64,000 nt of DNA from Mobula hypostoma (Eukaryota), in NCBI RefSeq assembly GCF_963921235.1, contig NC_086108.1, forward strand, positions 34,412,001 through 34,476,000. The letters run 5' to 3'. Below, piece by piece: positions 1-46,615 of the stretch; the first letter of the stretch is position 1, and each line of letters begins with the position of its first letter. The notes under the pieces were generated by a model. It did no database searches. It saw nothing but the letters and a program-made list of their open reading frames with translations, and was not told the DNA's origin. Position numbers and translations under genes: made by a program.

Positions 1-3000
1 AGTACAGTGTGACTATATGGAGATAGTGAGTGGAGTGTGACTATATGGAGATAGTGAGTGGAGTGTGGTAGTATGGAGATAGTGAGTGGAGTGTGACTAT
101 ATGGAGATAGTGAGTGGAGTGTGACTATATGGAGATAGTGAGTGGAGTGTGACTATATGGAGATAGTGAGTGGAGTGTGGCCATATGGAGATAGTGAGTA
201 CGCTGTGACTATATGGAGATAGTGAGTGGTGTGTGACTATATGGAGATAGTGAGTGGTGTGTGACTATATGGAGATAGTGAGTGGAGTGTGGCAGTATGG
301 AGATAGTGAGTGGAGTGTGGCTATATGGAGATAGTGAGTGGAGTGTGTCTATATGGAGATAGTGAGTGGAGTGTGGCAGTATGGAGATAGTGAGTGGAGT
401 GTGACTATATGGAGATAGTGAGTGGAGTGTGGCAGTATGGAGATAGTGAGTGGAGTGTGGCTATATGGAGATAGTGAGTGGAGTGTGGCTATATGGAGAT
501 AGTGAGTGGTGTGTGACTATATGGAGATAGTGAGTAGTGTGTGGCTATATGGAGATAGTGAGTGGAGTGTGGCTATATGGAGATAGTGAGTGGAGTGTGA
601 CTATATGGAGATAGTGAGAGGAGTGTGGCTATATGGAGATAGTGAGTGGAGTGTGACTATATGGAGATAGTGAGTGGAGTGTGACTATATGGAGATAGTG
701 AGTGGAGTGTGGCTATATGGAGATAGTGAGTTGAGTGTGACTATATGGAGATACTGAGTGCAGTGTGGCTATATGGAGATAGTGAGTGGAGTGTGACTAT
801 ATGGAGATAGTGAGTGGAGTGTGACTATATGGAGATATTGAGTACAGTGTGACTATATGGAGATAGTGAGTGGTGTGTGACTATATGGAGATAGTGAGTG
901 GAGTGTGGCAGTATGGAGATACTGAGTGGAGTGTGGCTATATGGAGATAGTGAGTGGAGTGTGACTATATGGAGATAGTGAGTACAGTGTGACTATATGG
1001 AGATAGTGAGTGGAGTGTGACTATATGGAGATAGTGAGTGGAGTGTGGCTATATGGAGATAGTGAGTGGAGTGTGACTATATGGAGATAGTGAGTGGTGT
1101 GTGACTATATGGAGATAGTGAGTGGAGTGTGGCTATATGGAGATAGTGAGTGGAGTGTGGCTATATGGAGATAGTGAGTGGAGTGTGACTATATGGAGAT
1201 AGTGAGTGGAGTGTGACTATATGGAGATAGTGAGTGGAGTGTGGCTATATGGAGATAGTGAGTGGAGTGTGACTATATGGAGATAGTGAGTGGAGTGTGG
1301 CTATATGGAAATAGTGAGTGGAGTGTGACTATATGGAGATAGTGAGTGGAGTGTGGCTATATGGAGATAGTGAGTGCAGTGTGGCTATATGGAGATAGTG
1401 AGTAGTGTGTGGCTATATGGAGATACTGAGTAGAGTGTGGCTATATGGAGATAGTGAGTGGAGTGTGACTATATGGAGATAGTGAGTGGAGTCTGACTAT
1501 ATGGAGATAGTGAGTACAGTGTGACTATATGGAGATAGTGAGTGGTGTGTGACTATATGGAGATAGTGAGTGGAGTGTGGCAGTATGGAGATACTGAGTG
1601 GAGTGTGGCTATATGGAGATAGTGAGTGGAGTGTGACTATATGGAGATAGTGAGTACAGTGTGACTATATGGATATAGTGAGTGGAGTGTGGCTATATGG
1701 AGATAGTGAGTGGAGTGCGGCTATATGGAGATAGTGAGTGGAGTGTGACTATATGGAGATAGTGAGTGGAGTGTGACTATATGGAGATAGTGAGTGGAGT
1801 GTGGCTATATGGAGATAGTGAGTAGTGTGTGGTTATATGGAGATACTGAGTGGAGTGTGGCTATATGGAGATAGTGAGTGGAGTGTGACTATATGGAGAT
1901 AGTGAGTGGAGTGTGACTATATGGAGATTGTGAGTACGGTGTGACTATATGGAGATAGTGAGTGGTGTGTGACTATATGGAGATAGTGAGTGGAGTGTGG
2001 CAGTATGGAGATACTGAGTGGAGTGTGGCTATATGGAGATAGTGAGTGGAGTGTGACTATATGGAGATAGTGAGTACAGTGTGACTATATGGAGATAGTG
2101 AGTGGAGTGTGACTATATGGAGATAGTGAGTGGAGTGTGGTAGTATGGAGATAGTGAGTGGAGTGTGACTATATGGAGATAGTGAGTGGAGTGTGACTAT
2201 ATGGAGATAGTGAGTGGAGTGTGACTATATGGAGATAGTGAGTGGAGTGTGGACATATGGAGATAGTGAGTACAGTGTGACTATATGGAGATAGTGAGTG
2301 GTGTGTGACTATATGGAGATAGTAAGTGGTGTGTGACTATATGGAGATAGTGAGTGGAGTGTGGCAGTATGGAGATAGTGAGTGGAGTGTGGCTATATGG
2401 AGATAGTGAGTGGAGTGTGACTATATGGAGATAGTGAGTGGAGTGTGGCAGTATGGAGATAGTGAGTGGAGTGTGGCAATATGGAGATAGTGAGTGGTGT
2501 GTGACTATATGGAGATAGTGAGTAGTGTGTGGCTATATGGAGATAGTGAGTGGAGTGTGGCAGTATGGAGATAGTGAGTGGAGTGTGACTATATGGAGAT
2601 AGTGAGTGGAGTGTGACAGTATGGAGATAGTGAGTGGAGTGTGGCTATATGGAGATAGTGAGTGGAGTGTGGCTATATGGAGATAGTGAGTGGTGTGTGA
2701 CTATATGGAGATAGTGAGTAGTGTGTGGCTATATGGAGATAGTGAGTGGAGTGTGGCTATATGGAGATAGTGAGTGGAGTGTGACTATATGGAGATAGTG
2801 AGAGCAGTGTGGCTATATGGAGATAGTGAGTGGAGTGTGACTATATGGAGATAGTGAGTGGAGTGTGACTATATGGAGATAGTGAGTGGAGTGTGGCTAT
2901 ATGGAGATAGTGAGTGGAGTGTGACTATATGGAGATACTGAGTGGAGTGTGGCTATATGGAGATAGTGAGTGGAGTGTGACTATATGGAGATAGTGAGTG

Positions 3001-6000
3001 GAGTGTGACTATATGGAGATAGTGAGTACAGTGTGACTATATGGAGATAGTGAGTGGAGTGTGGCAGTATGGAGATACTGAGTGGAGTGTGGCTATATGG
3101 AGATAGTGAGTGGAGTGTGACTATATGGAGATAGTGAGTACAGTGTGACTATATGGATATAGTGAGTGGAGTGTGGCTATATGGAGATAGTGAGTGGAGT
3201 GCGGCTATATGGAGATAGTGATTGGAGTGTGACTATATGGAGATAGTGAGTGGAGTGTGACTATATGGAGATAGTGAGTGGAGTGTGGCTATATGGAGAT
3301 AGTGAGTAGTGTGTGGTTATATGGAGATACTGAGTGGAGTGTGGCTATATGGAGATAGTGAGTGGAGTGTGACTATATGGAGATAGTGAGTGGAGTGTGA
3401 CTATATGGAGATAGTGAGTACGGTGTGACTATATGGAGATAGTGAGTGGTGTGTGACTATATGGAGATAGTGAGTGGAGTGTGGCAGTATGGAGATACTG
3501 AGTGGAGTGTGGCTATATGGAGATAGTGAGTAGAGTGTGACTATATGGAGATAGTGAGTACAGTGTGACTATATGGAGATAGTGAGTGGAGTGTGACTAT
3601 ATGGAGATAGTGAGTGGAGTGTGGTAGTATGGAGATAGTGAGTGGAGTGTGACTATATGGAGATAGTGTGTGGAGTGTGACTATATGGAGATAGTGAGTG
3701 GAGTGTGACTATATGGAGATAGTGAGTGGAGTGTGGACATATGGAGATAGTGAGTACAGTGTGACTATATGGAGATAGTGAGTGGTGTGTGACTATATGG
3801 AGATAGTAAGTGGTGTGTGACTATATGGAGATAGTGAGTGGAGTGTGGCAGTATGGAGATAGTGAGTGGAGTGTGGCTATATGGAGATAGTGAGTGGAGT
3901 GTGACTATATGGAGATAGTGAGTGGAGTGTGGCAGTATGGAGATAGTGAGTGGAGTGTGGCTATATGGAGATAGTGAGTGGTGTGTGACTATATGGAGAT
4001 AGTGAGTAGTGTGTGGCTATATGGAGATAGTGAGTGGAGTGTGACTATATGGAGATAGTGAGTGGAGTGTGACAGTATGGAGATAGTGAGTGGAGTGTGG
4101 CTATATGGAGATAGTGAGTGGAGTGTGGCTATATGGAGATAGTGAGTGGTGTGTGACTATATGGAGATAGTGAGTAGTGTGTGGCTATATGGAGATAGTG
4201 AGTGGAGTGTGGCTATATGGAGATAGTGAGTGGAGTGTGACTATATGGAGATAGTGAGTGGAGTGTGGCTATATGGAGATAGTGAGTGGAGTGTGACTAT
4301 ATGGAGATAGTGAGTGGAGTGTGACTATATGGAGATAGTGAGTGGAGTGTGGCTATATGGAGATAGTGAGTTGAGTGTGACTATATGGAGATACTGAGTG
4401 GAGTGTGGCTATATGGAGATAGTGAGTGGAGTGTGACTATATGGAGATAGTGAGTGGAGTGTGACTATATGGAGATAGTGAGTACAGTGTGACTATATGG
4501 AGATAGTGAGTGGTGTGTGACTATATGGAGATAGTGAGTGGAGTGTGGCAGTATGGAGATACTGAGTGGAGTGTGGCTATATGGAGATAGTGAGTGGAAT
4601 GTGACTATATGGAGATAGTGAGTACAGTGTGACTATATGGAGATAGTGAGTGGAGTGTGACTATATGGAGATAGTGAGTGGAGTGTGGCTAAATGGAGAT
4701 AGTGAGTGGAGTGTGACTATATGGAGATAGTGAGTGGTGTGTGACTATATGGAGATAGTGAGTGGAGTGTGGCTATATGGAGATAGTGAGTGGAGTGTGG
4801 CTATATGGAAATAGTGAGTGGAGTGTGACTATATGGAGATAGTGAGTGGAGTGTGACTATATGGAGATAGTGAGTGGAGTGTGGCTATATGGAGATAGTG
4901 AGTGGAGTGTGACTATATGGAGATACTGAGTGGAGTGTGGCTATATGGAGATAGTGAGTGGAGTGTGACTATATGGAGATAGTGAGTGGAGTGTGACTAT
5001 ATGGAGATATTGAGTACAGTGTGACTATATGGAGATAGTGAGTGGTGTGTGACTATATGGAGATAGTGAGTGGAGTGTGGCATTATGGAGATAGTGAGTG
5101 GAGTGTGGCTATATGGAGATAGTGAGTGGAGTGTGACTATATGGAGATACTGAGTGGAGTGTGGCTATATGGAGATAGTGAGTGGATTGTGACTATATGG
5201 AGATAGTGAGTGGAGTGTGACTATATGGAGATATTGAGTACAGTGTGACTATATGGAGATAGTGAGTGGTGTGTGACTATATGGAGATAGTGAGTGGAGT
5301 GTGGCATTATGGAGATACTGAGTGGAGTGTGACTATATGGAGATAGTGAGTAGTGTGTGGCTATATGGAGATAGTGAGTGGAGTGTGACTATATGGAGAT
5401 AGTGAGTGGAGTGTGACAGTATGGAGATAGTGAGTGGAGTGTGGCTATATGGAGATAGTGAGTGGAGTGTGGCTATATGGAGATAGTGAGTGGTGTGTGA
5501 CTATATGGAGATAGTGAGTAGTGTGTGGCTATATGGAGATAGTGAGTGGAGTGTGGCTATATGGAGATAGTGAGTGGAGTGTGACTATATGGAGATAGTG
5601 AGAGGAGTGTGGCTATATGGAGATAGTGAGTGGAGTGTGACTATATGGAGATAGTGAGTGGAGTGTGACTATATGGAGATAGTGAGTGGAGTGTGGCTAT
5701 ATGGAGATAGTGAGTTGAGTGTGACTATATGGAGATACTGAGTGGAGTGTGGCTATATGGAGATAGTGAGTGGAGTGTGACTATATGGAGATAGTGAGTG
5801 GAGTGTGACTATATGGAGATAGTGAGTACAGTGTGACTATATGGAGATAGTGAGTGGTGTGTGACTAAATGGAGATAGTGAGTGGAGTGTGGCAGTATGG
5901 AGATACTGAGTGGAGTGTGGCTATATGGAGATAGTGAGTGGAATGTGACTATATGGAGATAGTGAGTACAGTGTGACTATATGGAGATAGTGAGTGGAGT

Positions 6001-8604
6001 GTGACTATATGGAGATAGTGAGTGGAGTGTGGCTAAATGGAGATAGTGAGTGGAGTGTGACTATATGGAGATAGTGAGTGGTGTGTGACTATATGGAGAT
6101 AGTGAGTGGAGTGTGGCTATATGGAGATAGTGAGTGGAGTGTGGCTATATGGAAATAGTGAGTGGAGTGTGACTATATGGAGATAGTGAGTGGAGTGTGA
6201 CTATATGGAGATAGTGAGTGGAGTGTGGCTATATGGAGATAGTGAGTGGAGTGTGACTATATGGAGATACTGAGTGGAGTGTGGGTATATGGAGATAGTG
6301 AGTGGAGTGTGACTATATGGAGATAGTGAGTGGAGTGTGACTATATGGAGATATTGAGTACAGTGTGACTATATGGAGATAGTGAGTGGTGTGTGACTAT
6401 ATGGAGATAGTGAGTGGAGTGTGGCATTATGGAGATACTGAGTGGAGTGTGGCTATATGGAGATAGTGAGTGGAGTGTGGCTATATGGAGATCGTGAGTG
6501 GAGTGTGACTATATGGAGATAGTGAGTGGAGTGTGGCTATATGGAGATAGTGAGTGGAGTGTGACTATATGGAGATAGTGAGTGGAGTGTGGCAGTATGG
6601 AGATAGTGAGTGGAGTGTGGCAGTATGGAGATAGTGAGTGGAGTGTGACTATATGGAGATAGTGAGTGGAGTGTGGCTATATGGAGATAGTGAGTGGAGT
6701 GTGGCTATATGGAGATAGTGAGTGGAGTGTGACTATATGGAGATAGTGAGTGGAGTGTGACTATATGGAGATAGTGAGTGGAGTGTGGCTATATGGAGAT
6801 AGTGATTGGAGTGTGACTATATGGAGATACTGATTGGAGTGTGGCTATATGGAGATAGTGAGTGGAGTGTGACTATATGGAGATAGTGAGTGGAGTGTGA
6901 CTATATGGAGATAGTGAGTACAGTGTGACTATATGGACATAGTGAGTGGTGTGTGACTATATGGAGATAGTGAGTGGAGTGTGGCAGTATGGAGATATTG
7001 AGTGGAGTGTGGCTATATTGAGATAGTGAGTGGAGTGTGACTATATGGAGATAGTGAGTACAGTGTGACCATATGGAGATAGTGAGTGGAGTGTGACTAT
7101 ATGGAGATAGTGAGTGGAGTGTGGCTATATGGAGATAGTGAGTGGAGTGTGACTATATGGAGATAGTGAGTGGAGTGTGGCTATATGGAGATAGTGAGTG
7201 GAGTGTGACTATATGGAGATAGTGAGTGGAGTGTGGCAGTATGGAGATAGTGAGTGGAGTGTGACTATATGGAGATAGTGAGTGGAGTGTGGCTATATGG
7301 AGATAGTGAGTAGTGTGTGGCTATATGGAGATACTGAGTGGAGTGTGGCTATATGGAGATAGTGAGTGGAGTGTGACTATATGGAGATAGTGAGTGGAGT
7401 GTGACTATATGGAGATAGTGAGTACAGTGTGACTATATGGAGATAGTGAGTGGTGTGTGACTATATGGAGATAGTGAGTGGAGTGTGGCAGTATGGAGAT
7501 ACTGAGTGGAGTGTGGCTATATGGAGATAGTGAGTGGAGTGTGACTATATGGAGATAGTGAGTACAGTGTGACTATATGGAGATAGTGAGTGGAGTGTGA
7601 CTATATGGAGATAGTGAGTGGAGTGTGGCTATATGGAGATAGTGAGTGGAGTGTGACTATATGGAGATAGTGAGTGGAGTGTGGCTATATGGAGATAGTG
7701 AGTGGAGTGTGACTATATGGAGATAGTGAGTAGTGTGTGACTATATGGAGATAGTGAGTGGAGTGTGACTATATGGAGATAGTGAGTGGTGTGTGGTAGT
7801 ATGGAGATAGTGAGTGGAGTGTGGCCATATGGAGATAGTGAGTGGAGTGTGACTATATGGAGATAGTGAGTGGAGTGTGACTATATGGAGATAGTGAGTA
7901 CAGTGTGACTATATGGAGATGGTGAGTGGTGTGTGACTATATGGAGATAGTGACTGGAGTGTGACTATATGGAGATAGTGAGTACAGTGTGACTATATGG
8001 AGATAGTGAGTGGTGTGTGACTATATGGAGATAGTGAGTACAGTGTGACTATATGGAGATAGTGAGTGGAGTGTGACTATATGGAGAAAGTGAGTACAGT
8101 GTGACTATATGGAGATAGTGAGTGGTGTGTGACTATATGGAGATAGTGAGTACAGTGTGACTATATGGAGATAGTGAGTGGAGTGTGACTATATGGAGAT
8201 AGTGAGTACAGTGTGACTATATGGAGATAGTGAGTGGTGTGTGACTATATGGAGATAGTGAGTGGAGTGTGGCAGTATGGAGATAGTGAGTGGAGTGTGG
8301 CAGTATGGAGATAGTGAGTGGAGTGTGGCCATATGGAGATAGTGAGTGGAGTGTGACTATATGGAGATAGTGAGTGGAGTGTGACTATATGGAGATAGTG
8401 AGTACAGTGTGACTATATGGAGATAGTGAGTGGTGTGTGACTATATGGAGATAGTGAGTTGAGTGTGACTATATGGAGATAGTGAGTGGAGTGTGGCAGT
8501 ATGGAGATAGTGAGTGGAGTGTGGCAGTATGGAGATAGTGAGTGGAGTGTGACTATATGGAGATAGTGAGTGGAGTGTGACTATATGGAGATAGTGAGTA
8601 GAGT
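1..8604 (+). repeat. 28-bp tandem satellite/minisatellite, consensus GACTATATGGAGATAGTGAGTGGAGTGT, about 307 units, open at the left window edge
   Basis: Unit starts at 11, 39, 67, 95 and so on. Register at position 8401 is the same as at position 1 (8400 = 300 x 28). Recurrent variants include GGCTAT, GGCAGTAT, AGTACAGT and GATACTG. The + strand is strongly G-rich and C-poor. Confidence 0.99.
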
Positions 8605-9480: not shown

Positions 9481-10037
9481 TTCTTTTTTTAATTCCCCTC
9501 TTCTTTTATTGCCCACTCTGGCCTCTTACCTCTTCCTATCACCACCCCTGGGATCCGTCCTCCTTTCCTTTCTCCTATAGTTCACTTTCCTCTCCTAACA
9601 GAATCCTTCTTCTCCAGCCCTTTCTCTTTTCAACCCATCTGACTTCACCTATCAAGATATTAATATTAATATTTATATATTATACGACACTTCACCGACA
9701 GGTGTTCCAAGTCCGGACTGCAGGAGCTTGTCAGTGCCACTGTGTCCGAGCACCACCCAGTGTTGATCAGTAGGCAGACTCCACCTCCCCTTGTCTTGCC
9801 CAAAGTATAAAGTATCACCTTCTAGCTATCCTCCTTCCTCCTCCCCCTTTTTATTAAATCTTTTATCTTTTTATTCTGGCGTCTCCCCCCTTCGTTTTCA
9901 ATCCTGAAGAAGGGTCTCAGCCCAAAATGTTGACTGTTTATTCTCTTCCATAGATGCTGCCTGGCCTACTAAGTTTCTCCAGCATTTTGTGTGTGTTGAT
10001 TTGGATTTCCAGCATCTGCAGACTTCGTTGTCTTTAT
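9481..10037 (+). mobile_element. Penelope-like element (PLE) 3' terminal fragment with a decayed hammerhead motif
   Basis: Pyrimidine-rich tract followed by CCTGAAGAAGGGTCTCAGCCCAAAATGTTGACTG and ATAGATGCTGCCTGGCC...CCAGCATTTTGTGTGTGTTG, the same terminus as the GIY-YIG element at 34955-35980. Confidence 0.8.
9655..9812 (-). mobile_element. Short insertion of a Rex1/Babar endonuclease fragment, flanked by a TATCA duplication
   Basis: Minus strand translates as GKTRGGGVCLLINTGWCSDTVALTSSCSPDLEHLSVKCR, a Rex APE-domain motif. TATCA occurs at 9650-9654 and 9813-9817. Confidence 0.7.
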
Positions 10038-12124: not shown

Positions 12125-12820
12125 AGTACCACACACAAAATGCTGGTGGAGCTCAGCAAGTCAGGCAACATCTATGGAGAGGAATAAACGGTCGATGTTT
12201 CAGACCGAGACCCTCCTCGGGATGAGAAAGGAAGGGGGAAGAAGCCAGAATAAGAAAGTGGGGGCATGACAAGGAATACAAGTTGGCAGGCGAGGTGGAT
12301 GGATGGATGGGGGAAAGGTGAGAAAAAGAAGTAAGAAGCTGAGAGGGGATAGATGAGATAAAGGGCTGAAAAAGAAGGAATCTAATAAGAGGGTACAGTG
12401 GACATTGGAAGAAAGGAAAGGAGGAGGAGGATTACTAGAGGGAGGTGATTGGTGGGCGAGGACAAGGGATAAGAGGGTAAGCATAGTGGGAAATGGAAAG
12501 AGAGAGAAGGAGGAAGGTGGGGGGAAAGTACCGGATGTTGGAGAAATCACTGTCCATGCCATCAGGTTGGAGGCTATGACGTGTTGCTCCTCCAGCCCGA
12601 GTTTGGCCTCATCATAACAGCAGAGGAGGCCGTGGACTGACATGACAGAATGGGAAAGGGAAGCCGAATTGAAATGGGTGGCCACCAGGAGATCTTACCT
12701 TTTGCGGTAGACAAAGCAAAGGTGCTCGCCCAATTTGCGCTAGGTCTCACTGATGTAGAGGAGGCCAGATCATGAGCTCTGGGCACAGTAGATGACTCTG
12801 AAAGACTCCCAGGTGAAGTA
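12125..12820 (-). mobile_element. Penelope-like element 3' part (GIY-YIG C-terminus plus terminal repeat), decayed
   Basis: ORF 12200-12685 begins (V)ATHFNSASLSHSVMSVHGLLCCYDEAKLGLEEQH, homologous to ORF 35104-35538. Terminus ACACACAAAATGCTGGTGGAGCTCAGCA; decayed hammerhead at about 12190-12225. Confidence 0.85.
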
Positions 12821-13964
12821 CTGATACACAGATTTTCCCTGTTCAGAGAGAGAATGGTTGCAACAAGTGAGAAGTGCAGTTGTTTCTGAGAAGCTGCTTC
12901 GTCTCTCAAAAGACTTTAATGTTGCCAGAGACACCTATTTTGCAGCCTTCTGCATCCTCAATACAAGTATAAAAAGGTAAAACTAACTGGATACTCACTT
13001 CTATCCAAGGAAAAGATTACATGCTCTGCTACGTGTATTTATCATCTGAAGTCGAAAGTGTTGCCGTAAAAAACATCACAAATTACTGAGATTGCCTGGT
13101 TTTGCAGATGAGTTTTCAAGTTGGCAATGATTTATGGTTTTCAATGTGTTAAGTCCCTAACCTGCAGCTCTAAACTGTGTCGATTCAGCAAGGTAACAAG
13201 CAAAAGAATTAGGGTTAAGGTGGCGTAAAGCAGCAAATATTGACAGAACTGTTCCATCAATCAGGGAAGGAGGAAGTTCCAGTTAAAAGAAATTCTTGAT
13301 CAAAAGAAAACAAGCTACCAGAGGAACTCAGCAGTATATGTAGTGTTATACATTACAGAGTGAGGTGATTTATTCTCTCAGAGACACATTTCTGTGGATT
13401 GCTGAATCGAAAAGTAGATTCACGGCTGAGGCAGACAGAATTTTTGGATTACAGCATCTGGCAAACTCGAGACTTCTGTGGTGCATGGTAAGTACATTTT
13501 CTTGACTATTATATATTATTTTACTTACACTCCAGTGAATTTTAATTCACTTTTTGAGTAGAATGCTAAATGTATTGAGTCTGAGGTCCTGGTATGTAGG
13601 GAATGTGGGAGCAAAGGCCCCAGTGTCGGGTAAGGGAGTGCGGGGACTGGGACCCAGGTGGGTGGGAAGACAGTGCAGCAAACGTCACCTGATTAGGCAG
13701 ATGCAAACCATTGGGATTTTGGAATAGTTGTTAATGGATTATAAGTATTTTATTATATAGGGAAACCAAAGTTCTTTGGAATCAGGTAGAAATGAAGAGT
13801 TGAGGCCAGATATCAACCACGATCTTACTGAGTGATGGAACAGGCTCGAGGAGTCATATGGCCCACTCTTGCCCCCTCCTCCTTTCTTATGTCCTTCATC
13901 TAGTTCTTTCCTTATTATCCTGCTAACCTCTTCTTCTGACTTCACTGTTATCTAAGCCCATTTC

Positions 13965-17151: not shown

Positions 17152-19145
17152 ATATCATGAATGGCTGTGAAGCTTCACTCCCAGATGAAGCATACTTTTG
17201 TGCATGCTTTGAAAGGGAGAATAAAACTACACCTGGATGAATCTCTGCAGCATCTGGTGACACTGTGAACTCTGCCTCAGCGGCAGACATCAGAATATCT
17301 TTCAAGTGAGTGAACTCCTAGCAAGGCTTCAGGTCCTGATGGTGTACCAGGTAGGGCTCTGAAAACCTGTGCCAACCAACTGGCAGGAGTGCTCATGAAC
17401 AGCTTCAATCTCTCAATGCAGCAGTCAGAGATTCTCACCTGCTGAAGAGGGTGACCATCTTACCAGTGCCTAAGAAAAACAAGGTGAGCCACCTCAATGA
17501 CTATCGCCCTGTTGCACTCACATCTACTGTAATGAAGGGCATTGAGAGGTTGGTCATGGCTGGAATCAACTCCTGCCTAAGCAGTGGCCAGGACCCACTG
17601 CAATTTCCCTACTGCCACAGTAAGTCTGCAGCAGATACAATTTCATTGGCTCGGCACTCAGCTTTGAATCACCTGAACAATAGCTATAGCTATATCAAGC
17701 TGCTGTTTATTGACTACAGCTCAGTGTTCAACACAATTATACCCTCAGTTCTAATCAATAAGCTCCAAAACCTGGGCCTCTGTACCTTCCTCTGCAACTG
17801 GATCCTTGACTTCTTCACCGGGAGACAACAATCTGCGTGGATTGGAAATGACATCTCCTCCCTGCTGGCAATAAACACTGGCACACCTCAAGGACGTATG
17901 CTTAGCCCACTGCTCTACTCTTCCTACGCCCAACGTGTGGCTTACACCCATGACTGTGTGACTGTGTGATAGCTCAAACGCCATCTATAAGTTTGCTGAT
18001 GACAGAACTATTGTTGGCGGAATTTCAGCGGGTGAAGAGAAGGCATACAGGAGTGAGATAGGTCAGCTGGTTGAGTGATGTTGCAGCAATAACCTTGCAC
18101 TCAGTGTCAGTGAGACCAAAGAATTGATTGTGAACTTCAGGAAGGGGAAGTCGAACGAACACACACCAATCCTCATCAGTGAAGGGGTGGGCTGTTTCAA
18201 AATCCCTGGATGCCAACTCTTCTGAGGATCTATCCTCAGGGCCCAACATATTGATGCAATTACAAAGAAAGCATGACAGAGGCTATATTTCATTAGGAGT
18301 TTGAGGAGAACTCATATCATCCAAAGACACTGGCAAATTTCTACAGGTGTACTGTGGAGGGCATCCTAACTGGTTGCTTCATGGTCTGGTATGAAGGGGT
18401 CAATGCACAGGATTGAAAAAAAGCTGCAGAAAGTTGTGAAATCTGTCAGCTCCATCATGGACACTGGCCTCCCCAGCATTCAGGACACCTTCAAAAAGCA
18501 ATGTCTCAAAAAGATGGCATCCAGCATTAAGGAGCCCCATCACCCAAGACACGCCTTCTTCTTATTCACAAGGAGGAGGTACAGAAGCCCCAAAACAACA
18601 AATTTCACAACAGTGATATTAAACCTGATTCTGATTCCTTAAGTGCCACTTCAGTTGCCCAGACTCATCCTATGAAAGATCCATCCCTACCTTCACCTGC
18701 TACCAAAAACTAACATGTCTGTCCCTGTTTCTAATGAAAGGTCTTTGACCTTAATCGGTGATTATTTCCCTTACTACAGATGCTGCAAGTCTCCAGCGTT
18801 TTCCATTTTTATTTTAGACTTCCAGCCTCTGCAGTTTTTGGTTTTATCTTCATGTAATGCATGTCATAGTTTTACCAGTTTCTGAACTGAGCAGGGCTTC
18901 ATTACTTCTGGAAATAGGTATCAGAAGCCATGCCTGAAAGGAGGAAAACTTGCAGCAATCTCCTAGCCTGGGTCTGCAGAATAATAGCGAAGCCTTGTGT
19001 TGTCATCCACAAGATTGTTTCTGATAAGAGGTGAAGGAGCTGCAGAGGCCCAGGAGTGGCTACAGCAAAGATAATTCAAAGAGGCAACACACACAAAATG
19101 CAGGTGGAACACAGCAGGCCAGGCAGCATCTATTGGAAGAGGTAC

Positions 19146-19181
19146 AGTCGACGTTTCGGGCCAAGACCCTTCATCAGGACT
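19146..19181 (-). ncRNA. Minimal type I hammerhead ribozyme motif (PLE-type), intact core
   Basis: Minus strand reads AGUC-CUGAUGA-A-GGGU(CUUG)GCCC-GAAA-CG-UC^GACU. Stem I AGUC/GACU, stem II of 4 bp, palindromic ACGU in place of stem III. Confidence 0.85.
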
Positions 19182-19359
19182 AACTGAAAGAAGAGATAGT
19201 AAGAGATTTGAAAGTGGGAGGGGGAGGGGGAGATCCGAAATGATAGGAGGAGGGGGGAGGGATGGAGCTAAGAACTGGAAAGTTGATTAGCAAAGGGGAT
19301 ACCAGGATCTCCCCCTCCCCCTCCCACTTTCAAATCTCTTACTATCTCTTCTTTCAATT

Positions 19360-19395
19360 AGTCCTGACGAAGGGTCCCAGCCCGAAACGTCGACT
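19360..19395 (+). ncRNA. Minimal type I hammerhead ribozyme motif (PLE-type), intact core
   Basis: AGUC-CUGACGA(19364-19370)-A-GGGU(CCCA)GCCC-GAAA(19384-19387)-CG-UC^GACU. Predicted cleavage after C19391. Confidence 0.85.
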
Positions 19396-20379
19396 GTACC
19401 TGCGTTGTACCAGCAGTTAGTGTGTGTTGCTTGAATTTCCAGCATCCACAGATTTCCTCGTGTTTGCGTTTTTAATTCAAAGAGGTATCTTTAAGGTATT
19501 GCTGACCTGCCAGGTGATGAACACCCACTCCCAGGGAGAGGGATTCATTAACTTCACTTGCTACACATTTTGTAAAGAGAGATGAAAGAAGCTGCAGATA
19601 CTGTGATCTGGAGCAAAAAGCAAACTGCTTGAGGAACTCAGCAAGTCAGGAGGTATCTGTGGAGGCAGGGGGATGGTTATATTTCGGGTCAAGTTTGACG
19701 ATAACTCTACAAGCTTTGATCAATGGAGGGCCTACAGGGCTTGTACACTGGATGGACAGTTCTGTCATTCTACAGAGAGCACAATCCAGTATGAATTAAT
19801 TACGGTTTCAGTATCCAAAAATTTTGCTTTGTTCATGAATCAAAGCGTAATTTGATTTATGATAATACAGTTATGCTATTGGGTAGTTTATTTTCTGCAG
19901 ATTTTCTCAAAATACAATGTATTCCTTTAATTACATTGACAATCACATATTTCTTTTTTTTTACTATTTAAAATAATATTTTGGTTGATTAAGTTAGGCT
20001 TGTTGTAATACCCAATAGGATTCGTCTTGTTAATATTTTGTCCAATAAGATGCCCTAGAATATTTTAGAGGGATGTGGGGGCTAGCCATTTTCTGGAGAG
20101 AGAACAGATGTTTTGGAGGAAGAAGGAGAATGGAAAATGGAAATGGTAAATGGACAACAAACATAGCAGAAAAATATGATCTCACTAGTATAAGCTTAGC
20201 TTACTGTTGTACTGACAAAATATTTTAAACTACTGTATAACAAACACAATAAAAAAGGGCCGAGTACACAGATATTAATTAGCCATAATTCATTGGAAAT
20301 AGCCTTTTCATTGTTATTCCCTGTGCATTGAAGAGTTATGTTACTGTTAGTTTGTATTCATGGTACTAGCTAACTCAAA

Positions 20380-26189: not shown

Positions 26190-26990
26190 TGTGGAGAATG
26201 AGATACTATTCCTCAAGATCACATAGGAATTCACTGGGAAGGCATAAAGACCCCAAAAGGGCAGAGAGGGATTGGAATGGTGAATTAAATTGAACTAGGC
26301 GCTGATAGAATGTAAGTGTCGTGCAAAATGGTCGCTTCATCTGCATTTGGTTTCTCCAGTGTGGAGGAGACCACATTGTAAACTCTGAATGCAGTACACA
26401 AGTCTGTGAGCATTGCCTGTGAATCACTGTTTCACCTGGAAGGGCTGTTTGGCTCCATGAATGGCAGAAAGAGAAGAGGTGAAAGAGTGGGTGCTATATC
26501 TTCTATGGTTGCAAGGGATAAGTCCACAAGATGGTGAGTGGGTGCTGGTGGAGGAGGAAGAATAGCCTTAGAGTCAGAGTGGCAATGATCCCTTTGGAAT
26601 GCTGGAAGTGGAGAGGGGGCGAAGTGGTGTCTTGTGGAAGAATCCCTTTGAAGGTGCTGGAAATTATGGAGGAAGAAGCATTGATTGTGATGGGTAAGGA
26701 CGTGGCCGTAATGGTTTGTAACTTCAAAACAAACTAATTCAAATGAAGACATGAGAGTCCAGGGATACGGGTCTAGTAGGAGTTTACTTTAAGCAAGGCA
26801 CGCTCATATCATGTGGTAGCATGATGACATAGGCAATTTACATATTTTTAAATATAACCCATAATTAATTACTTAAACAAACAAGAATGCCTAATCAAAC
26901 AATACACAAGATAACTCAGGTATTATTGATATTAAGTACACAACAGTGGCTATCTCTGTCCTCGCTCTGGGAGGGTGGAGAGATGGCGTA
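26190..26990 (-). mobile_element. Old Penelope-like element fragment (RT C-terminus/GIY-YIG region)
   Basis: ORF 26432-26752 contains FQHLQRDSSTRHHFAPSPLPAFQRDH, homologous to the 34990-35100 region. Confidence 0.7.
26707..26945. mobile_element. Short solo-LTR-like insertion (239 bp) with 5-bp TSD GTGGC
   Basis: GTGGC at 26702-26706 and 26946-26950. Ends CGT...ACA (TGT mutated). AT-rich and interrupts the PLE. Confidence 0.55.
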
Positions 26991-32638: not shown

Positions 32639-34954
32639 ACTCTACCTCAGATGGCATGTATGACTATGAATTCATATTTACTGAGGTCTCTACACACTTC
32701 TCTGGAATAGGATTTGAATCCAAGATCTTTGCCACCAGACAAGTTATCACTAGCTGTAGTTTATATGAAACAATACTCTGATTCAAAAGCAATTTACCCA
32801 GAAAATCTCTGACAACGTTATGTAAGGGAGGATCATGAAAACTGGGATTTTGGTTTGAACCTATATATTGGAATGACAAAATACATCATTAACATAGAAG
32901 CCTCATAAAAATCAGCACTTTGCTGTGTTTCTGTGAACATCATTGAAGTTGATGAAGCACTGTAAGTGTCATAAGAACTGAAGGAAAAGTGGAAGGAACC
33001 CCTGTGAATATTGAAGTAGATGGAAATCATGCATCAATATTGAAGTAGAAATTTATCATCAGTTATTATGCAATGTGTTCAGTAATGTAGCAGCAGCTCA
33101 TTATTCTGACTTTTTCCCCTCAGCATTAATACATGAAGCCACTACTTTTGTTAACAAGATTTCACAAGTCTCTACTTTTTTAAAACCAGTCAAGAGCCAA
33201 TTGTTACTCTAAAAACCCTGAATTTGTAGCCAATGGTCAAGAATCACTACTTGCTAATAACCTTAAAAAAAGCTTCCCCGGCAAGATCTTTTCCTTCTCT
33301 GAAGAAATCAATTGATTGGAATTTCTGGCCTCCAGGATTCCTGATATCATCAAACTATATGAACATCCAATTTTTGAATTTTCATATTAAACAAATAAGT
33401 ACAGTGTTTAGATATTTTTTAACATTTGCAGAATGGAACATACATATATGAATAATGTAGAACTGAAATAAAAGTTTTTAAATGTTAATATCCCTTGCAT
33501 CTTGGAAAAATCTTGAGAAAATTACAGTGCATAAAATTTATTTCAAGATTATTAGTGCCAAATGGTTTGCTGGGCAAAAGTAATGGCCTAATAAGACTGG
33601 TATCAAAATGTAAGATTACTGTTGTATTTCTAAGCAAGACAAGTTCATTGGTTCAATAATTTCTCTTGATTGCAGTTGAGAAGTTTTTTTCAGATAGTGC
33701 CACTTACAGAGAAGTACTGAATCACTCCAATGGTTTTGGAATATCCGTGTTAATCTATGAATGCATAAAAACCTCAGAATTGCTGAGTATTATAGAGTAA
33801 CAGTAGAAAATACTGTACTAACAATGTTGCCATTGTGACAAGCACAAAATCCAAGCCATTATCTTTGATGTCTGTATCTGTTGTTTGCAATGTTTTATAT
33901 ATTTGAAGCTGCAATAGCTTTTCATCCATGGCATCTTTTACATTGCACAATGTTAGCTCCCTCATTATATCATTTTGTCCTGCACTGTAGCACTCCCATT
34001 GTTATTATCATTATAATGATGATCATTTTTATTTATTTTTCCTCAGCTCAAGCTGGTAAAATCTGAGCTACAGGCATAGCCAAGCATGTTCATTTGTCAA
34101 CTGCTAGGAACTTTTGGACAATTCTAGTGGTGTTTAGTATTGTGGCTTTCTGAAGATTTACACAGATATTACTGTCTGGCCCTAATTGTTTAATGCTATT
34201 GTGTAGTGCCTTTGGGATGACACCAGTTGTAGAAATTACTATTGAGACAAGGTCCACCTTGTTCGTGTTCCAAAGTCCTTCAATTTCCTCTTTTAATTCA
34301 GCATATTTCTGATGTTTTCACTTATTGATTTCTGTAAGTTATGTGCGTTTGGAATTAACACACAGAAGTAAGTTGTTCTTGCTTGTTTATTCTGTATTAT
34401 TATATCATTATTATTTACATCAGTAGTGATCTTAAGAATAAATTTGTGCCATTCCACCAAAGTGATCATTCAGCCTTCAGGGTCTGTGATATGTAGCATT
34501 TAAATAGTAGCATGCACTTCAAATTCTAAGAACTCAAGAAACCCTTCAAATCCCAAAGTTGTCCAAAAACTGATATTGTTTTACTCTTGTTCATTTGAAC
34601 GGTTTTATCAACTAAACTAAACCAGACATGTAAGAAGTGCTAAGACAAAGAGGATGGCAAATTTTGCCTGCATCTGGAAAAGTGCCCAATATAATAGATC
34701 ATCAGATGAATGTTCACTATCAGGAATGAGCTAGATGCTGGTGGGCCAATCCAAATATAAGTTTAAAAGAAAATCCCGGGTAACTATACAGTAATTAACT
34801 TTCTCATGTTTGTAATCATTTCTCAGTTCATCTCTGTAACTTTACATGCTTTCTAAGTAAACTGTTGGGTATTTAACTTGGGCATTCCATGTAATGTTTA
34901 GCAATCATTATACAACATAAGTAAATTTAGGAAACACTGAGGATGGTGGAAGTG

Positions 34955-35980
34955 GGACCCTCACCTACCACCCCACCAGTCTCCGGGTCCAACATATAAT
35001 TCTCCGTAACTTCCACCACCTCCAACGGGATCCCACCACCAAGCACGTCTTTCCCTCCCCTCCCTTTCTGCTTTCCACAGGGATCGCTCCCTATGCAACT
35101 CCCTTGTCCGCTCATACCCCGCTATCCTTTCCCACCAATCTCCCTCCTGGCACTTATCCTTGTAAGCGGAACAAGTGCTACACATGCCCTTACACTTCCT
35201 CCCTCACCACCATTCAGGGTCCTAGACAGTCCTTCCAAGTGAGGCGACACTTCACCTGTGAGTCAGTTGGTGTGATATACTGCGTCTGGTGCTCCCAGCG
35301 TGGCCTTCTATATATTGGTGAGACCCGACGCAGACTGGGAGACTATTTCGCTGAACACCTACGCTCGGTCTGCCAGAGAAAGCAGGATCTTCCAGTAGCC
35401 ACACATTTTAATTCCACGTCCCATTCCCTTTCTGATATGTCAATCCACGGCCTCCTCTACTGTCAAGATGAAGCCACGCTCAGGTTGAAGGAACAATACC
35501 TTATATTCCATCTGGTAGCCTCCAACCTGATGGCATGAACACTGATTTCTCTAACTTCCGTTAATGCCCTTCCTCCCCTTCATACCCCATCCCTTATTTA
35601 TTTATTTTTCTTCTTTTTTTTTTCTTCTTTTTTTCTCTCTCTGTCCCTCTCACAATCACTCCTTGCCTTCTCTCCATCTTCCTCTGGTGCTACCCTCTCC
35701 CTTTCTTTCTCCCTAGGCCTCCTGTCCCATGATCCTCTCCCTTCTCCAGCCTTGTATTCCTTTTGCCAATCACCTGTCCAGCTCTTGGCTCCATCCCTCC
35801 CCCTCCTGTCTTCTCCTATCATTTCGGATCTCCCCCTCCCTCTTCCACTTTCAAATCTCTTACTATCTCTTCTTTCAGTTAGTCCTGATGAAGGATCTCG
35901 GCCCAAAACATCGACTGTACTTCTTCCTATAGATGCTGCCTGGCCTGCTGCATTCCACCAGCATTTTGTGTGTGTTGCTT
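34955..35980 (+). mobile_element. Penelope-like element (Neptune-type) 3' portion: Zn-finger/GIY-YIG endonuclease plus terminal repeat with decayed hammerhead
   Basis: ORF 35104-35538: PCKRNKCYTC...FTCESVGVIYCVWC...LLYIGETRRRLGDYFAEH...PVATHFN. Terminus AGTCCTGATGAAGGATCTCGGCCCAAAACATCGACTG at 35881-35917. Confidence 0.93.
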
Positions 35981-37290
35981 GTCATTGAATAGCAACTAGT
36001 TTGAGCTGAAAAGTGCCCTACTCCCATTATTATCCATTGGCGTAGCACTTTTAAGTGTGAGTCAGTCAACATTTAGTTAAAACCATGCTCTCCAACCTAT
36101 TATTGTGCTAATACATTGCAGTGATGTGGAAAGTATATGTTTTCAAAAGAGGTGTTTGACTGATACCTCCAAGGTGCTCTGGCTCCATTTGAAGAAAGAA
36201 TGACAGCTCTTCAACTGTTCTTGCTAAACTTCTGTACTCAAGCAAACACCTCTAAAATCAGAGGAACAAATTGCTACGGCTAGTGCCATAGGAAGTCTGA
36301 CTACATAATAATGGTCAATTCACTTCAGAAACAACCCAATGCTTATGGACTTCTTCAGGAAGAAATTCCTGTCTTTGTCATCCTAAAACAAACCGTTTTG
36401 TTCTCAAATTAGTCTTCATGACATGACGATCCAGAATTTCTAATTCAATTATTAATTCTTATGACTATTGCTCAGTGCAGCTTATGTTGTGTATCACTAG
36501 TATTTCTGCATATGGAGTCAGTAACCAACTTTTAAAGATGGTATGCATAGACATCCAAAGCAGGCAAAATCTGGGGTGTAATTACTAAAAGAGGAATGAA
36601 AGTTAAAGAAAGCTTGAAAATCTGAATTGTCATTATCAATGCAGAAAAACCAAATGCAATTTCTTTTAATGGTGATTAAATTTAAAATTAAAACATGAAA
36701 ATATCTTTCATTAGATGCTTTCTCCTTGAAATTCCGCAATTATTTTCAAGCAAATTTTAAGTTTAGTGCTGATTGTAATTGTATTTCATTAGAAACATTT
36801 AATGCAGTTTATAATCAAGACAGCTGGACAGAAGGCTTTGAAAATAAGCCTGTTTGCTTACAGTTTACTGCTTTAATCAAGATAATACAGTTTACTGCTA
36901 TCATTTATCATACCTTAGGAACAATGGTAAGCATGCATTTCAGGGCGTGGTCCTCTCTTTACCAGGGATGAGAATTATCAGCCCACTTTTTTATCCTATC
37001 CCTATATAAATGCAATTATATTTGTACATAGAGGTAGTTAATCTACTTAGTGCTACTTTTTTGGAGAGTTGAATCTATACAATCAAGTTTATTATCAGAT
37101 ATCATGAAATTGGTTACTTTGTGGCAGCAGTACAGTGCAAGACTTAAAAAATGACAAAAAGTTATAATAATTAAAAATAAACAAATTGTGCAAAAGAGGA
37201 ATAGCAAGGTAGTGTTCAAGGACCATTCAAAAATCTGACGGCAGAGGGGAAGAAGCTGTTTCTAAAATATTCTGTGGGTCTCAAGCTCCT

Positions 37291-41830: not shown

Positions 41831-41967
41831 ATAGTAATGAGAAGAGGGCATGTCCTAAATGTTGAGGGTCCTTAATGATGGATGTCACCTTCCTTACACA
41901 CCTTTTGAGGATGTCCTCAATGGTGGGGAGCGTTGTACCCATGCAGGACCTGGCTAAGTCTACAACT

Positions 41968-42093
41968 CTGACGAAGGGTCTCAGCCTGAAACGTCGACTG
42001 TACCTCTTCCTAGAGATGCTGCCCGGCCTGCTGCGTTCACCAGCAACTTTGATGTGTGTTGCTTGAATTTCCAGCATCTGCAGAATTCCTGTT
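41968..42093 (+). mobile_element. Approx. 125-bp PLE terminal fragment starting at the hammerhead core, 12-bp TSD
   Basis: GTCTACAACTCT at 41958-41969 and 42094-42105. Insert begins CTGACGAAGGGTCTCAGCCTGAAACGTCGACTG. Confidence 0.9.
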
Positions 42094-43554
42094 GTCTACA
42101 ACTCTCTGCAGCCTCTTGCAATCTTGTGCATTTCAGGCTCCATATCTGGTTGTGGTGCAACAAGTCAAAATGCTCTCCACAGTACATCTGAAGAAATCCG
42201 CTGGAATCTTCAGTGACATATAAAATCTTCTCAATTTCTTAATGAAGCATAGCCACTGGTGTACCTTTATTATGATAGCATCAATGTGTTGGGGCCATGT
42301 TAGATCCTCTAAGACATTCATCCCTAGGAACTTGAAGCTCCTTCTTCCACTGTTGTGTGTCCTCTCACTTCCCCTTCCTGAGGTCCACAATCAATTCCTT
42401 GGCCTTGCTGACATTGAGTGCAAGGTTGTTGTTGCAAACCCAGTCAGCCAACTTATTTATCTTGCTCCTCATCCTCATCTGCGATTCCGCCAACAACAGT
42501 GGTGTCACCAGTGAATTTTTAGATAGCACATGGCTGTGGTTAGCCACACAGTATTGAGTATAGAGACAGTACAGTAGTGAGCTAGGCACACATCCTCGTG
42601 GTGTGCCTGCATTGATTGTCAGTGAGGAGGAGATGCTCTTATTGATCTGCATTGACTGTGGTCTCCCAATGAGGAAGTCAAGGATCAACTTGCAGAGGGA
42701 GGTACAGGGGCCCAGGTTTTGAAGCTTGTTGAGAGGTACTAAGGGAGATGAGGGTGTTCTGCACTCAAAGTTAAGGTTTCCAACAGCATTAAGGGTTGCA
42801 TATGACCTTCTTCCCTTCCATGTTAATGTATTTATGCAATTTTTTGAATAACTTTTATTAAGCAGGCATTTTGGATTCATTTCAAAAGAATATGTCCACA
42901 ATGTTCAGATTAATTTCAGAGTGATATGACAGGATTAAATTAGTGCTGCTCTCCACCCAGTGATTAATTATCAAAATCTAGGATCCTTTTTATAAACTTA
43001 AGGTTCCTTCTGTTTCTTAGGCAGGGATTTTCATTCTGCCTCTACTTTACATGCGCAACAACATCTTGTTAACTCTCAGCTTCCCCGTGTAGAATGCCAA
43101 TGGGCAACTCAGCCAAGGTGGGAGCTGGGGAGAGAGTTGCCCAAGCCAAGCTAATCAATTGATTAAAAAGTAAGCATGCAATTTTTTCTAAGCAAATGTG
43201 CAATGAAATTTTCTGCAAAAGAAACATGCTTCATTTATGGATATAAATCCTCGAGAAGAATATCTTCATTATTGAAGATTAACATATCGATACACAACAT
43301 TGGGACATCCAAAAGTACTCTGCAAAAAATATGTGTAGTTTTGAAATGGTCTCAAGGAAGTGGCTAAAATTTCCAAATTTCAGGAAGCACAGAAACCAGC
43401 CTGGCAAGATCAAGGATGACTTTGCATTTCTGAGGTGGCTAAGGAGGCCAACTATGCCACAGGTGGAGCACCTGAGATGGATGATCTATCAGTGAATTAA
43501 AGAAAGACAGATTTGCATTTGGATAGCATGGTCTATAACCCTAGATCTCAAATG

Positions 43555-46510: not shown

Positions 46511-46615
46511 ATGCCAAGCAAAACCAAATACAACTTAGTGGATGACGGGCACGATTTGCGGATTCCTCTGCATAACGAAGAGGCTTTCCGGCATGGAATC
46601 AGTTTTGAGGCGAAG
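46511..46615 (+). CDS. NOS1AP: NOS1AP/CAPON (PTB-domain nNOS adaptor) coding exon 1
   Basis: GCCAACATG Kozak context. [35 protein letters not shown] (35 aa) is nearly identical to the vertebrate NOS1AP N-terminus as I recall it. Donor AAG|GTTTGT, phase 0. Confidence 0.96.

What the first reader, a model, noticed from the sequence alone, without database searches (positions are those of the whole stretch)
19072..19485. TSD-flanked fold-back cassette carrying an intact hammerhead ribozyme on each strand
Seen: a 388-bp insert between perfect 13-bp direct repeats, made only of two inverted Penelope termini (about 96-bp stem, 68-nt spacer). Both arms keep the full core CUGANGA...GAAA...UC, stem I (AGUC/GACU), stem II and a palindromic ACGU in place of stem III. 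Known: PLE terminal repeats carry minimal hammerheads thought to cleave as dimers, and inverted termini are typical of PLE insertions. Inference: this is a protein-free ribozyme cassette. A transcript from either strand would contain one ribozyme plus its own antisense copy, so cleavage would compete with long-hairpin formation. If the exact junction recurs elsewhere, it is a self-propagating non-autonomous family.
Basis: partly seen in the sequence, partly recalled or inferred. Interest (0 to 1): 0.7.

Follow-up and report, generated by a model that had tools for sequence, protein, structure and literature searches.

The report
Head-to-head Penelope retroelement insertion
This 388-base insert is two leftover tail ends of a very abundant Penelope-like jumping gene laid down back to back in one insertion; each end carries that element's usual small hammerhead ribozyme motif, so it is a tidy example of a pattern already described, and the long hairpin is predicted to keep both ribozymes switched off.

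Summary
Coordinates hold: 388 nt between a perfect 13-bp duplication, a 97-bp stem, and a minimal hammerhead motif on each strand. The '68-nt spacer' is more Penelope sequence. The insert is a 222-nt antisense terminus joined at a 2-nt overlap to a 168-nt sense terminus that has a 27-nt deletion and a one-sided ~42-nt tail. A GIY-YIG Penelope remnant of the same family lies 16 kb away. This layout, and paired opposite-strand hammerheads 100-700 bp apart, are in print (PMC8557442, PMC3846280, PMC4209133). Each ribozyme is transcribed after its antisense copy; forming its stems costs 45-63 kcal/mol, so the hairpin should win outright. A related organism (2.9% apart) shares the insertion; a more distant one (7.5%) probably lacks it. 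Contigs show 8 other head-to-head joints of the family. Whether this exact junction recurs was not settled: no genome is held. The scan noted such fold-backs before, in this genome and others. Ordinary.

The parts
19072..19084 (+). Left copy of the 13-bp target-site duplication; its last G may equally be read as the first base of the left arm
   Evidence: organism B has one substitution in it (19073)
19085..19306 (-). Left arm: 222-nt 5'-truncated 3' terminus of the Penelope-like element, antisense on +, without tail; has a 6-nt deletion near 19252
   Evidence: 88.6% over 229 columns to the remnant at 35750-35978; 6-nt gap; loose ends at 19249/19253
19146..19181 (-). Minimal type I hammerhead motif of the left arm; predicted cut 3' of C19150 on the - strand
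19237..19304 (-). The '68-nt spacer': the part of the left arm that the shorter right arm does not reach; forms the hairpin loop
   Evidence: aligns without a break to 35752-35825
19305..19306 (.). Head-to-head junction: two bases (GG) belong to both arms (2-nt microhomology)
   Evidence: comparison with both strands of the 35.7-kb copy
19305..19472 (+). Right arm: 168-nt 5'-truncated 3' terminus, sense on +, with a 27-nt internal deletion near 19399-19401
19360..19395 (+). Minimal type I hammerhead motif of the right arm; predicted cut 3' of C19391
19431..19472 (+). One-sided 'tail' of about 42 nt, present on the right arm only
   Evidence: aligns with the ends of the copies at 42.07-42.09 kb and 10.0 kb; tail described in PMC8557442 and PMC3846280
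19473..19485 (+). Right copy of the 13-bp target-site duplication
   Evidence: the organism D contig matches the window from exactly 19473 on
34921..35982 (+). Context, not part of the insert: 5'-truncated remnant of the same Penelope-like family with a C-terminal GIY-YIG frame (34921-35535) followed by the same terminus, its hammerhead core mutated
   Evidence: Pfam GIY-YIG E=0.0043, below the curated cut-off; Atlas GIY-YIG clusters at 0.96; CX4CxxC motif upstream

Best explanation
It is one old, dead insertion of a Neptune/Nematis-type Penelope-like element (PLE), cut short on both sides. SHOWN: two 5'-truncated 3' termini of one family sit head to head inside a single 13-bp duplication, one with the tail and one without, joined at a 2-nt overlap; each carries the family's minimal hammerhead simply because that motif lies about 60-100 nt from the terminus. 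INFERRED (about 0.6): the element's protein nicked both strands 13 nt apart in an AT-rich target and started reverse transcription from both nicks, at the two start points of the RNA (with and without tail), perhaps on two different RNA molecules; both cDNAs stopped early and were joined by microhomology. PREDICTED: any transcript across the insert folds into the long hairpin, with the ribozyme paired to its antisense copy, so it does not cut; if the locus gives anything, it is double-stranded RNA. The ribozymes are passengers, and the insert has decayed in place since before organisms A and B split.
For: Anatomy. Family and clade: GIY-YIG frame with CX4CxxC upstream, followed by the terminus; that motif marks Neptune/Nematis and is absent from Penelope/Poseidon (PMC8557442 passages). 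Published layout: inverted 5'-truncated copy plus one-sided 30-40-bp tail (PMC8557442); inverted pLTRs inside 9- and 10-bp duplications, head-to-head most frequent (PMC3846280); dual minimal hammerheads 100-700 bp apart on opposite strands (PMC4209133). Mechanism: a purified PLE protein cut and extended both strands, preferred ATT, and started at two RNA sites that bound the tail (PMC11167929). Each arm holds sequence that the other lacks (68 nt left, about 42 nt right), so neither is a plain copy of the other. Folding: hammerhead fold costs 51 (+) and 61 (-) kcal/mol in the whole cassette, 45 and 55 at the prefix where the motif is just complete, against 2-4 for the isolated motifs. Eight other left-arm-to-right-arm joints with different breakpoints are among the rows shown (15 of 584 in table 5, 12 of 565 in table 5c).
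Against: The junction was not counted genome-wide, and none of the 32 listed pieces (of 141,668) crosses 19306/19307, so the central junction has no independent read support here and its uniqueness is untested. Run X1 may be the window's own source. The empty site in organism D is inferred: its 47 letters were not shown. One other head-to-head joint (19161 to 19360) has contig depth 54.6 in X1 and 98.6 in X5, against 3-10 for flank contigs, which may mean that some fold-backs of this family have several copies. Both cores are whole, and the 4 differences between the two 36-nt motifs all lie at N7 or in loop II; of the 4 other copies in the window 1 keeps the core. The inner 52 bp of the stem have no mismatch (P=0.002 for that place, 0.029 for such a run anywhere), which two independent cDNAs do not predict. 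Energy models ignore kinetics, tertiary contacts and protein help.
Confidence: 0.87

Rival explanations
1. Non-autonomous fold-back family: the cassette was itself transcribed and re-inserted by PLE protein in trans, since it has a usable terminus at either end.
For: PLE termini can mobilise other sequence in trans (PMC3846280). One different head-to-head joint has 8 to 11 times the depth of left-flank contigs in two organisms (one contig each, shorter side 27 letters).
Against: No second copy of the junction in the 64-kb window. The two termini differ in just the way that a fresh two-ended insertion gives. Depth laid across the left arm's 6-nt deletion is 6,324 against 1,210,995 fifteen bases earlier in X1, so this form is at most a small part of the family (depth is no copy number). 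A 128-bp hairpin is a poor template (inference).
Confidence: 0.07
2. Same insertion, other route (a rival on mechanism only): the first cDNA folded back at the 2-nt overlap and copied itself to make the inner right arm; a second, short cDNA from the other nick supplied the outer part and tail, and the 27-nt deletion marks the seam. Self-priming was proposed for rotifer PLEs.
For: Inner 52 bp identical, stem 92 of 97, outer segment 25 of 31; the deletion and 4 right-arm changes cluster at the border. Self-priming proposal: PMC3846280 discussion.
Against: No palindrome at the junction, only 2 nt. Inside the stem the right arm shares two letters (N7 and loop II) with the copy at 41.97 kb and the left arm shares them with the copy at 35.9 kb, which fits two templates, though both are CpG sites. 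The inner 52 nt have no CpG, which explains part of the gradient (P=0.023 without the 4 CpG-site differences).
Confidence: 0.25
3. A kept, working RNA element: the host uses the hairpin or the ribozymes (a switch, a small-RNA source or an RNA-end former).
For: Both cores whole after an age of 3-7% divergence; differences confined to free positions. A transcript starting at or after 19185 would leave the + ribozyme free (cost 4.1 kcal/mol).
Against: The arms have drifted at the rate expected from the flanks. The finding was picked for having whole cores. Minimal PLE hammerheads do not cut as monomers and cut slowly as dimers (PMC4209133); the lizard PLE ribozyme cut only with protein added, and its cut was not needed for insertion in vitro (PMC11167929). 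No host domain in 65 frames of 72 aa or more scanned between 9.1 and 34.3 kb (1 hit, an RT).
Confidence: 0.04
4. Artefact or coincidence: a fold-back read error in the assembly, or two separate insertions at one spot.
For: The central junction is crossed by none of the 32 listed pieces. The duplication contains a heptamer that also opens the element's tail (in 63 of 54,987 random 13-mers).
Against: A read fold-back would give identical arms; these differ at 11 sites and by indels. One duplication frames both arms. Contigs bridge the left junction in X1 (33 letters in the element, 0 differences) and the right one in X5 (38 letters).
Confidence: 0.02

Closest known systems
Inverted ('complex tandem/inverted') insertions of endonuclease-bearing Penelope-like elements, e.g. 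Pen2a_Av of Adineta vaga (Arkhipova et al. 2013, PMC3846280: passages and the discussion section read; Craig et al. 2021, PMC8557442: passages read)
   Same: Head-to-head 5'-truncated copies inside one target duplication; short overlap at the inverted junction; tail on one end only.
   Different: Both copies are cut down to the terminus, so no ORF is left; duplication 13 bp against 8-10 bp in the rotifer examples; 2-nt overlap and no palindrome at the junction; tail about 42 nt against 30-40.
Minimal hammerheads (min-HHR) of metazoan PLEs (Cervera and De la Pena 2014, PMC4209133: parts 1 and 2 of 4 read; supplements not seen)
   Same: Type I layout, stem I of 4-5 bp, unpaired base between positions 9 and 10.1, G10.1-C11.1 pair, palindromic 15.2-16.2 with no loop III; pairs on opposite strands 100-700 bp apart were reported (here the cores start 187 nt apart).
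   Different: Stem II has about 4 bp, against 7-8 bp in the Schistosoma motifs. Cartilaginous fish are not named in the parts I read; the supplementary alignment, which I did not see, may hold such motifs.
Poseidon element PAc of Anolis carolinensis, in vitro (Frangieh et al. 2024, PMC11167929: parts 1 and 2 of 4 read)
   Same: Nicking and extension of both strands, AT-rich target with ATT, two RT start points bounding a tail: the insert reads like a genomic record of that reaction.
   Different: Other clade (this family has the CX2-5CxxC linker). PAc starts without homology to the target; here 7 nt of the duplication match the start of the tail.
Non-LTR retrozymes (Cervera and de la Pena 2020, PMC7229834: search listing and start of abstract only; Li, Clavereau and Pollet 2026, 10.64898/2026.07.22.740005: part 1 of 5 and passages read)
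   Same: Protein-free, PLE-derived, a few hundred bases, type I hammerheads.
   Different: Retrozymes are head-to-tail tandems with the ribozymes on one strand, able to dimerise and circularise; this is head to head with one ribozyme per strand.

Membership tests
Minimal PLE hammerhead (min-HHR) | Core CUGANGA, GAAA and UH in type I order | tested here: met
   both strands
Minimal PLE hammerhead (min-HHR) | Stem I of 4-5 bp and stem II closed by G10.1-C11.1, with one unpaired base after A9 | tested here: met
   sequence and folding of the isolated motifs; traits from PMC4209133
Minimal PLE hammerhead (min-HHR) | Palindromic 15.2-16.2 in place of helix III | tested here: met
   ACGU on both strands
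Minimal PLE hammerhead (min-HHR) | Lies in the terminal repeat of a PLE | tested here: met
   same terminus follows the GIY-YIG frame at 34921-35535
Minimal PLE hammerhead (min-HHR) | Self-cleavage as a dimer | not testable with these tools
   needs an in vitro assay; ViennaRNA cannot represent the double hammerhead
Canonical hammerhead families of Rfam | Match to a curated hammerhead model | tested here: not met
   no hammerhead among 26 matches at E<=1 or 1 match at E<=10
Inverted insertion of an endonuclease-bearing PLE | Inverted 5'-truncated copy joined head to head | tested here: met
Inverted insertion of an endonuclease-bearing PLE | One target duplication around the whole unit | tested here: met
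   13 bp, perfect; a single copy with no tail before it is likely in organism D
Inverted insertion of an endonuclease-bearing PLE | 30-40-bp tail on one end only | tested here: met
   about 42 nt on the right arm only; slightly longer than the published range
Neptune/Nematis clade (parent element) | C-terminal GIY-YIG with a CX2-5CxxC linker motif upstream | tested here: met
   CX4CxxC at residue 65 of the 189-aa piece; criterion from PMC8557442
Neptune/Nematis clade (parent element) | RT phylogeny | not tested
   no PLE RT was found in the window; the remnant is 5'-truncated
Non-LTR retrozyme | Two or more head-to-tail units, each with a hammerhead on the same strand | tested here: not met
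   no tandem array here; the motifs are on opposite strands; definition
Non-LTR retrozyme | Circular RNA intermediate | not testable with these tools
   only contigs were on offer
Non-autonomous mobile family | Several dispersed copies with the same internal junction and different flanks | tested here: inconclusive
   1 copy in 64 kb; no genome; no listed contig piece crosses the junction

The most novel reading that the evidence does not exclude
Some miniature head-to-head Penelope termini in this lineage, this one included, are re-copied as units: a protein-free, two-ended fold-back retroelement that can be primed from either strand and whose hairpin locks its ribozymes, so that the RNA stays uncut for re-insertion. 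The lead is another head-to-head joint of the family (19161 to 19360 in window terms) whose contig depth is 8 to 11 times that of left-flank contigs in organisms A and B and which is not listed for organism D. I found no paper describing such a family in the searches.
Probability: 0.07. Interest if true: 0.5.

Novelty: new member of a known kind. Interest (0 to 1): 0.13.

Why it matters
As it stands it matters little: it is one more copy of a published insertion pattern. Its use is as a clean fossil. How PLEs make inverted insertions is still open (PMC8557442 says so), and this copy shows both RT start points, a 13-nt stagger, a 2-nt junction overlap and a near-symmetric target in 414 bases. 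A family this abundant could supply thousands of such events to decide between two-ended priming and self-priming. If fold-back units proved to be re-mobilised, that would add a non-autonomous PLE derivative with inverted, not tandem, structure.

Tried and rejected
Whole-genome count of the junction: no genome is held. Pattern scans for the family's hammerhead found 0 stretches in viral contigs, metagenome contigs and genome contigs; a second metagenome scan with a 20-nt motif gave 27 loci, of which 0 align to the cassette or terminus over 30 nt or more (longest 26 nt), so they are chance matches. These collections do not cover animal genomes, so the blanks say nothing. Look-up of the junction among earlier notes by sequence: 0 windows; one word search also gave 0. 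Expression: no RNA holder listed; the one RNA-like run laid (X15) had zero depth in most unique flank bins; neither is evidence. Rfam: microRNA-precursor matches over the hairpin (MIR847, mir-3202 and others) are far below their gathering scores and reflect the long stem; rejected. Co-folding of two isolated motifs gave intermolecular duplexes (-30.0 and -34.7 kcal/mol against -27.0 and -24.6 for two monomers) but not the active double-hammerhead fold, so it decides nothing. Host gene around the insert: 65 of the 119 frames of 72 aa or more in 8.6-46.4 kb were scanned (those from 9.1 to 34.3 kb, less three simple-repeat frames); 1 hit, a LINE-type RT; short exons would be missed. Lunse, Weinberg and Breaker on dimeric cleavage is not held; I saw only its citation and the review's account (PMC6765202 passages). 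A search for Penelope-like + hammerhead + cartilaginous fish found 0 papers; this one wording does not show that the family is undescribed, and repeat libraries were not searchable. Retrozyme, MITE and pre-microRNA readings were considered and rejected on layout.
Full report
OBSERVATION. The sequence at 19072-19485 is as placed. The 13-mer at 19072-19084 returns unchanged at 19473-19485, 388 nt lie between, and the 13-mer is found nowhere else in the window on either strand. Of 3000 random intervals of that length one had a 13-bp flanking repeat, possibly this very cassette, and none of the others exceeded 9 bp. The arms 19140-19236 and 19305-19401 are 95% complementary over 97 nt, and a second pair, 19084-19114 and 19400-19430, is 81% complementary over 31 nt. 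The whole folds at -237.3 kcal/mol, z = -19.4. A scan of both strands for a minimal hammerhead gave 4 matches in the window: + 19364-19391, - 19177-19150, + 41968-41995 and one at 43714 that lacks the stems. Rfam's hammerhead models match neither motif, as expected for motifs with no helix III.

ANATOMY. The cassette matches five stretches elsewhere in the window, best at 35750-35990. That copy follows a 205-codon frame with a weak GIY-YIG match (E=0.0043, under the curated cut-off), Atlas neighbours of the GIY-YIG family at 0.96 and a CX4CxxC motif before the nuclease. A C-terminal GIY-YIG with that linker points to the Neptune or Nematis clade (PMC8557442 passages); no RT was available to test it. 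Against this copy the insert reads as follows. 19085-19306 is one continuous 222-nt antisense terminus; the '68-nt spacer' is part of it. 19305-19472 is a 168-nt sense terminus that lacks 27 nt near 19400 and runs about 42 nt past the point where the left arm ends. The two share the bases 19305-19306. So both 3' ends face outwards, each against one copy of the duplication. That the host is a ray-like cartilaginous fish is my recollection of this repeat and the wording of earlier notes; no call of mine named the organism.

RELATED DNA. No genome is held. Of 24 listed runs, 4 (organism A, one sample, perhaps the window's source) hold 0.84-0.86 of the words and 4 (organism B) 0.35-0.43. I laid 4 runs, all contigs. 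Summed depth is 10^5-10^6 over the element in the three DNA-like runs and 3-10 over unique flank bins: the family is huge, though the tool warns that this is no copy number. In X1 a contig bridges the left junction (33 letters in the element, 0 differences); its right-junction contig has only 15 element letters and does not count. In X5 (organism B) a contig bridges the right junction (38 letters); its left one has 25 and does not count. B's four flank pieces differ at 32 of 1099 letters. In X10 (organism D) a 489-nt contig matches from exactly 19473, 33 of 441 letters different, and its first 47 letters were laid neither on the tail nor on the left flank; an empty site is the likely but unshown reading. 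The insertion is then older than the A-B split (2.9%) and probably younger than the split from D (7.5%). The arms differ at 5 of 97 and 11 of 128 sites, in the range of neutral decay, 4 of the 11 being at CpG sites by my reading. Among the joints shown (15 of 584 in table 5, 12 of 565 in table 5c) 8 distinct ones lead from the antisense arm into the sense arm at other breakpoints. Head-to-head joining is thus common in the family and varied. None of the 32 listed pieces (of 141,668) crosses this cassette's own junction, so its recurrence is untested. Against my reading: the joint 19161 to 19360 has depth 54.6 in X1 and 98.6 in X5, 8 to 11 times the left-flank contigs, from one contig each with a 27-letter short side.

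THE RIBOZYMES. Both motifs meet the traits listed for minimal PLE hammerheads (PMC4209133), including the unpaired base after A9. Alone they form stems I and II. But in a head-to-head pair the antisense copy is transcribed first on either strand, and 52 perfect base pairs can close before the ribozyme is made. The cost of holding the hammerhead fold is 51 and 61 kcal/mol in the whole cassette, 45-63 in the 8 prefixes tested, and 2-5 in the isolated motifs and single arms; it falls to about 4 only if a + transcript starts at or after 19185. One transcript carries one ribozyme, and single minimal motifs did not cut in vitro. So there is no real competition in the model: the hairpin wins. This is a prediction, not a measurement. 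One point is left unexplained: the 4 differences between the two 36-nt motifs all fall at N7 or in loop II. Two of them match letters seen in other copies in the window, so they may be template variants, and the finding was chosen for whole cores; I do not take it as selection on this locus.

MECHANISM. A purified lizard PLE protein cuts and extends both strands of AT-rich DNA and starts at two RNA sites that bound the tail (PMC11167929). Two such starts from nicks 13 nt apart, one with tail and one without, early stops and a microhomology join give exactly this insert. Each arm has sequence that the other lacks, so plain self-copying cannot make it. I put two-ended priming at about 0.6. A mixed route, fold-back for the inner right arm plus a short second cDNA, is kept at 0.25 because the inner 52 bp are mismatch-free (P=0.002 at that place, 0.029 anywhere, 0.023 without CpG sites). 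Two side features are single cases: the empty target has a 7-bp inverted repeat around the cut region (62 of 54,900 window positions have one), and the duplication holds a heptamer that also opens the tail (63 of 54,987).

COMPARISON AND VERDICT. Inverted 5'-truncated copies with a one-sided tail are called characteristic of PLEs (PMC8557442; PMC8969392 passages), shown with 9- and 10-bp duplications in a rotifer (PMC3846280), and opposite-strand pairs of minimal hammerheads 100-700 bp apart were reported in 2014 (PMC4209133). It is no retrozyme, which needs same-strand tandem units. I had written down this reading before opening the scan's notes; those notes report fold-backs of the same kind in this genome and in others, and I use them as leads only. 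Supplements of the cited papers were not seen. Verdict: real, well preserved, ordinary; new member of a known kind; interest 0.13.

Noticed in passing
tables 5 and 5c; window terms 19161 to 19360: A different head-to-head joint of the family has contig depth 54.6 (organism A) and 98.6 (organism B), 8 to 11 times the left-flank contigs, and is not listed for organism D; it may be a fold-back present in several copies. The joint 19131 to 19380 has 67.9 in organism B.
   Followed up: no
window 19067-19073 and 19486-19492: The pre-insertion site has a perfect 7-bp inverted repeat around the cut region, so that the two nicks would face nearly the same sequence, as a dimeric nuclease might prefer; 62 of 54,900 window positions have such symmetry. 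One case only.
   Followed up: partly
window 19073-19079 and 19431-19437: Seven bases of the target duplication are the reverse complement of the first 7 bases of the element's tail, 5 nt from the left junction; 63 of 54,987 random 13-mers hold that heptamer. It may have helped priming, unlike the homology-free start reported for the lizard element.
   Followed up: partly
window 41958-42105: A single 124-nt sense terminus of a related subfamily inside a perfect 12-bp duplication; it begins at the hammerhead core, keeps the core letters but lacks the 5' strand of stem I.
   Followed up: partly
window 18600-18637; table 5: Many contigs in the three DNA-like runs join this short repeat end (a LINE-type 3' tail by my recollection) directly to the Penelope terminus (18 to 27 contigs for the commonest joint in X1 and X5), which hints that the element often inserts at these tails.
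   Followed up: no
window 9868-10035, 12130-12844 (-), 26304-26677 (-): Further, older Penelope-like remnants; the last two match the GIY-YIG frame at 56% and 43% amino-acid identity; the hammerhead cores of the first two are broken.
   Followed up: partly
window 6-8604: A 28-bp tandem array of about 307 copies, 92% matches, with GC skew 0.8.
   Followed up: no
window 46511-46615 (+): A 35-codon stretch in a GC-rich region that I recall as the start of NOS1AP (CAPON); the Atlas gave PTB/PID-like clusters at 0.89-0.93 with low recognition, a lead only; no solved-structure match. The cassette would lie about 27 kb upstream.
   Followed up: partly
window 19458-19916; table 8: Organism A contigs over the right flank have depth 3.2-4.1, about half of those over the left flank (6.6-7.5); perhaps one haplotype of a heterozygous stretch.
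   Followed up: no
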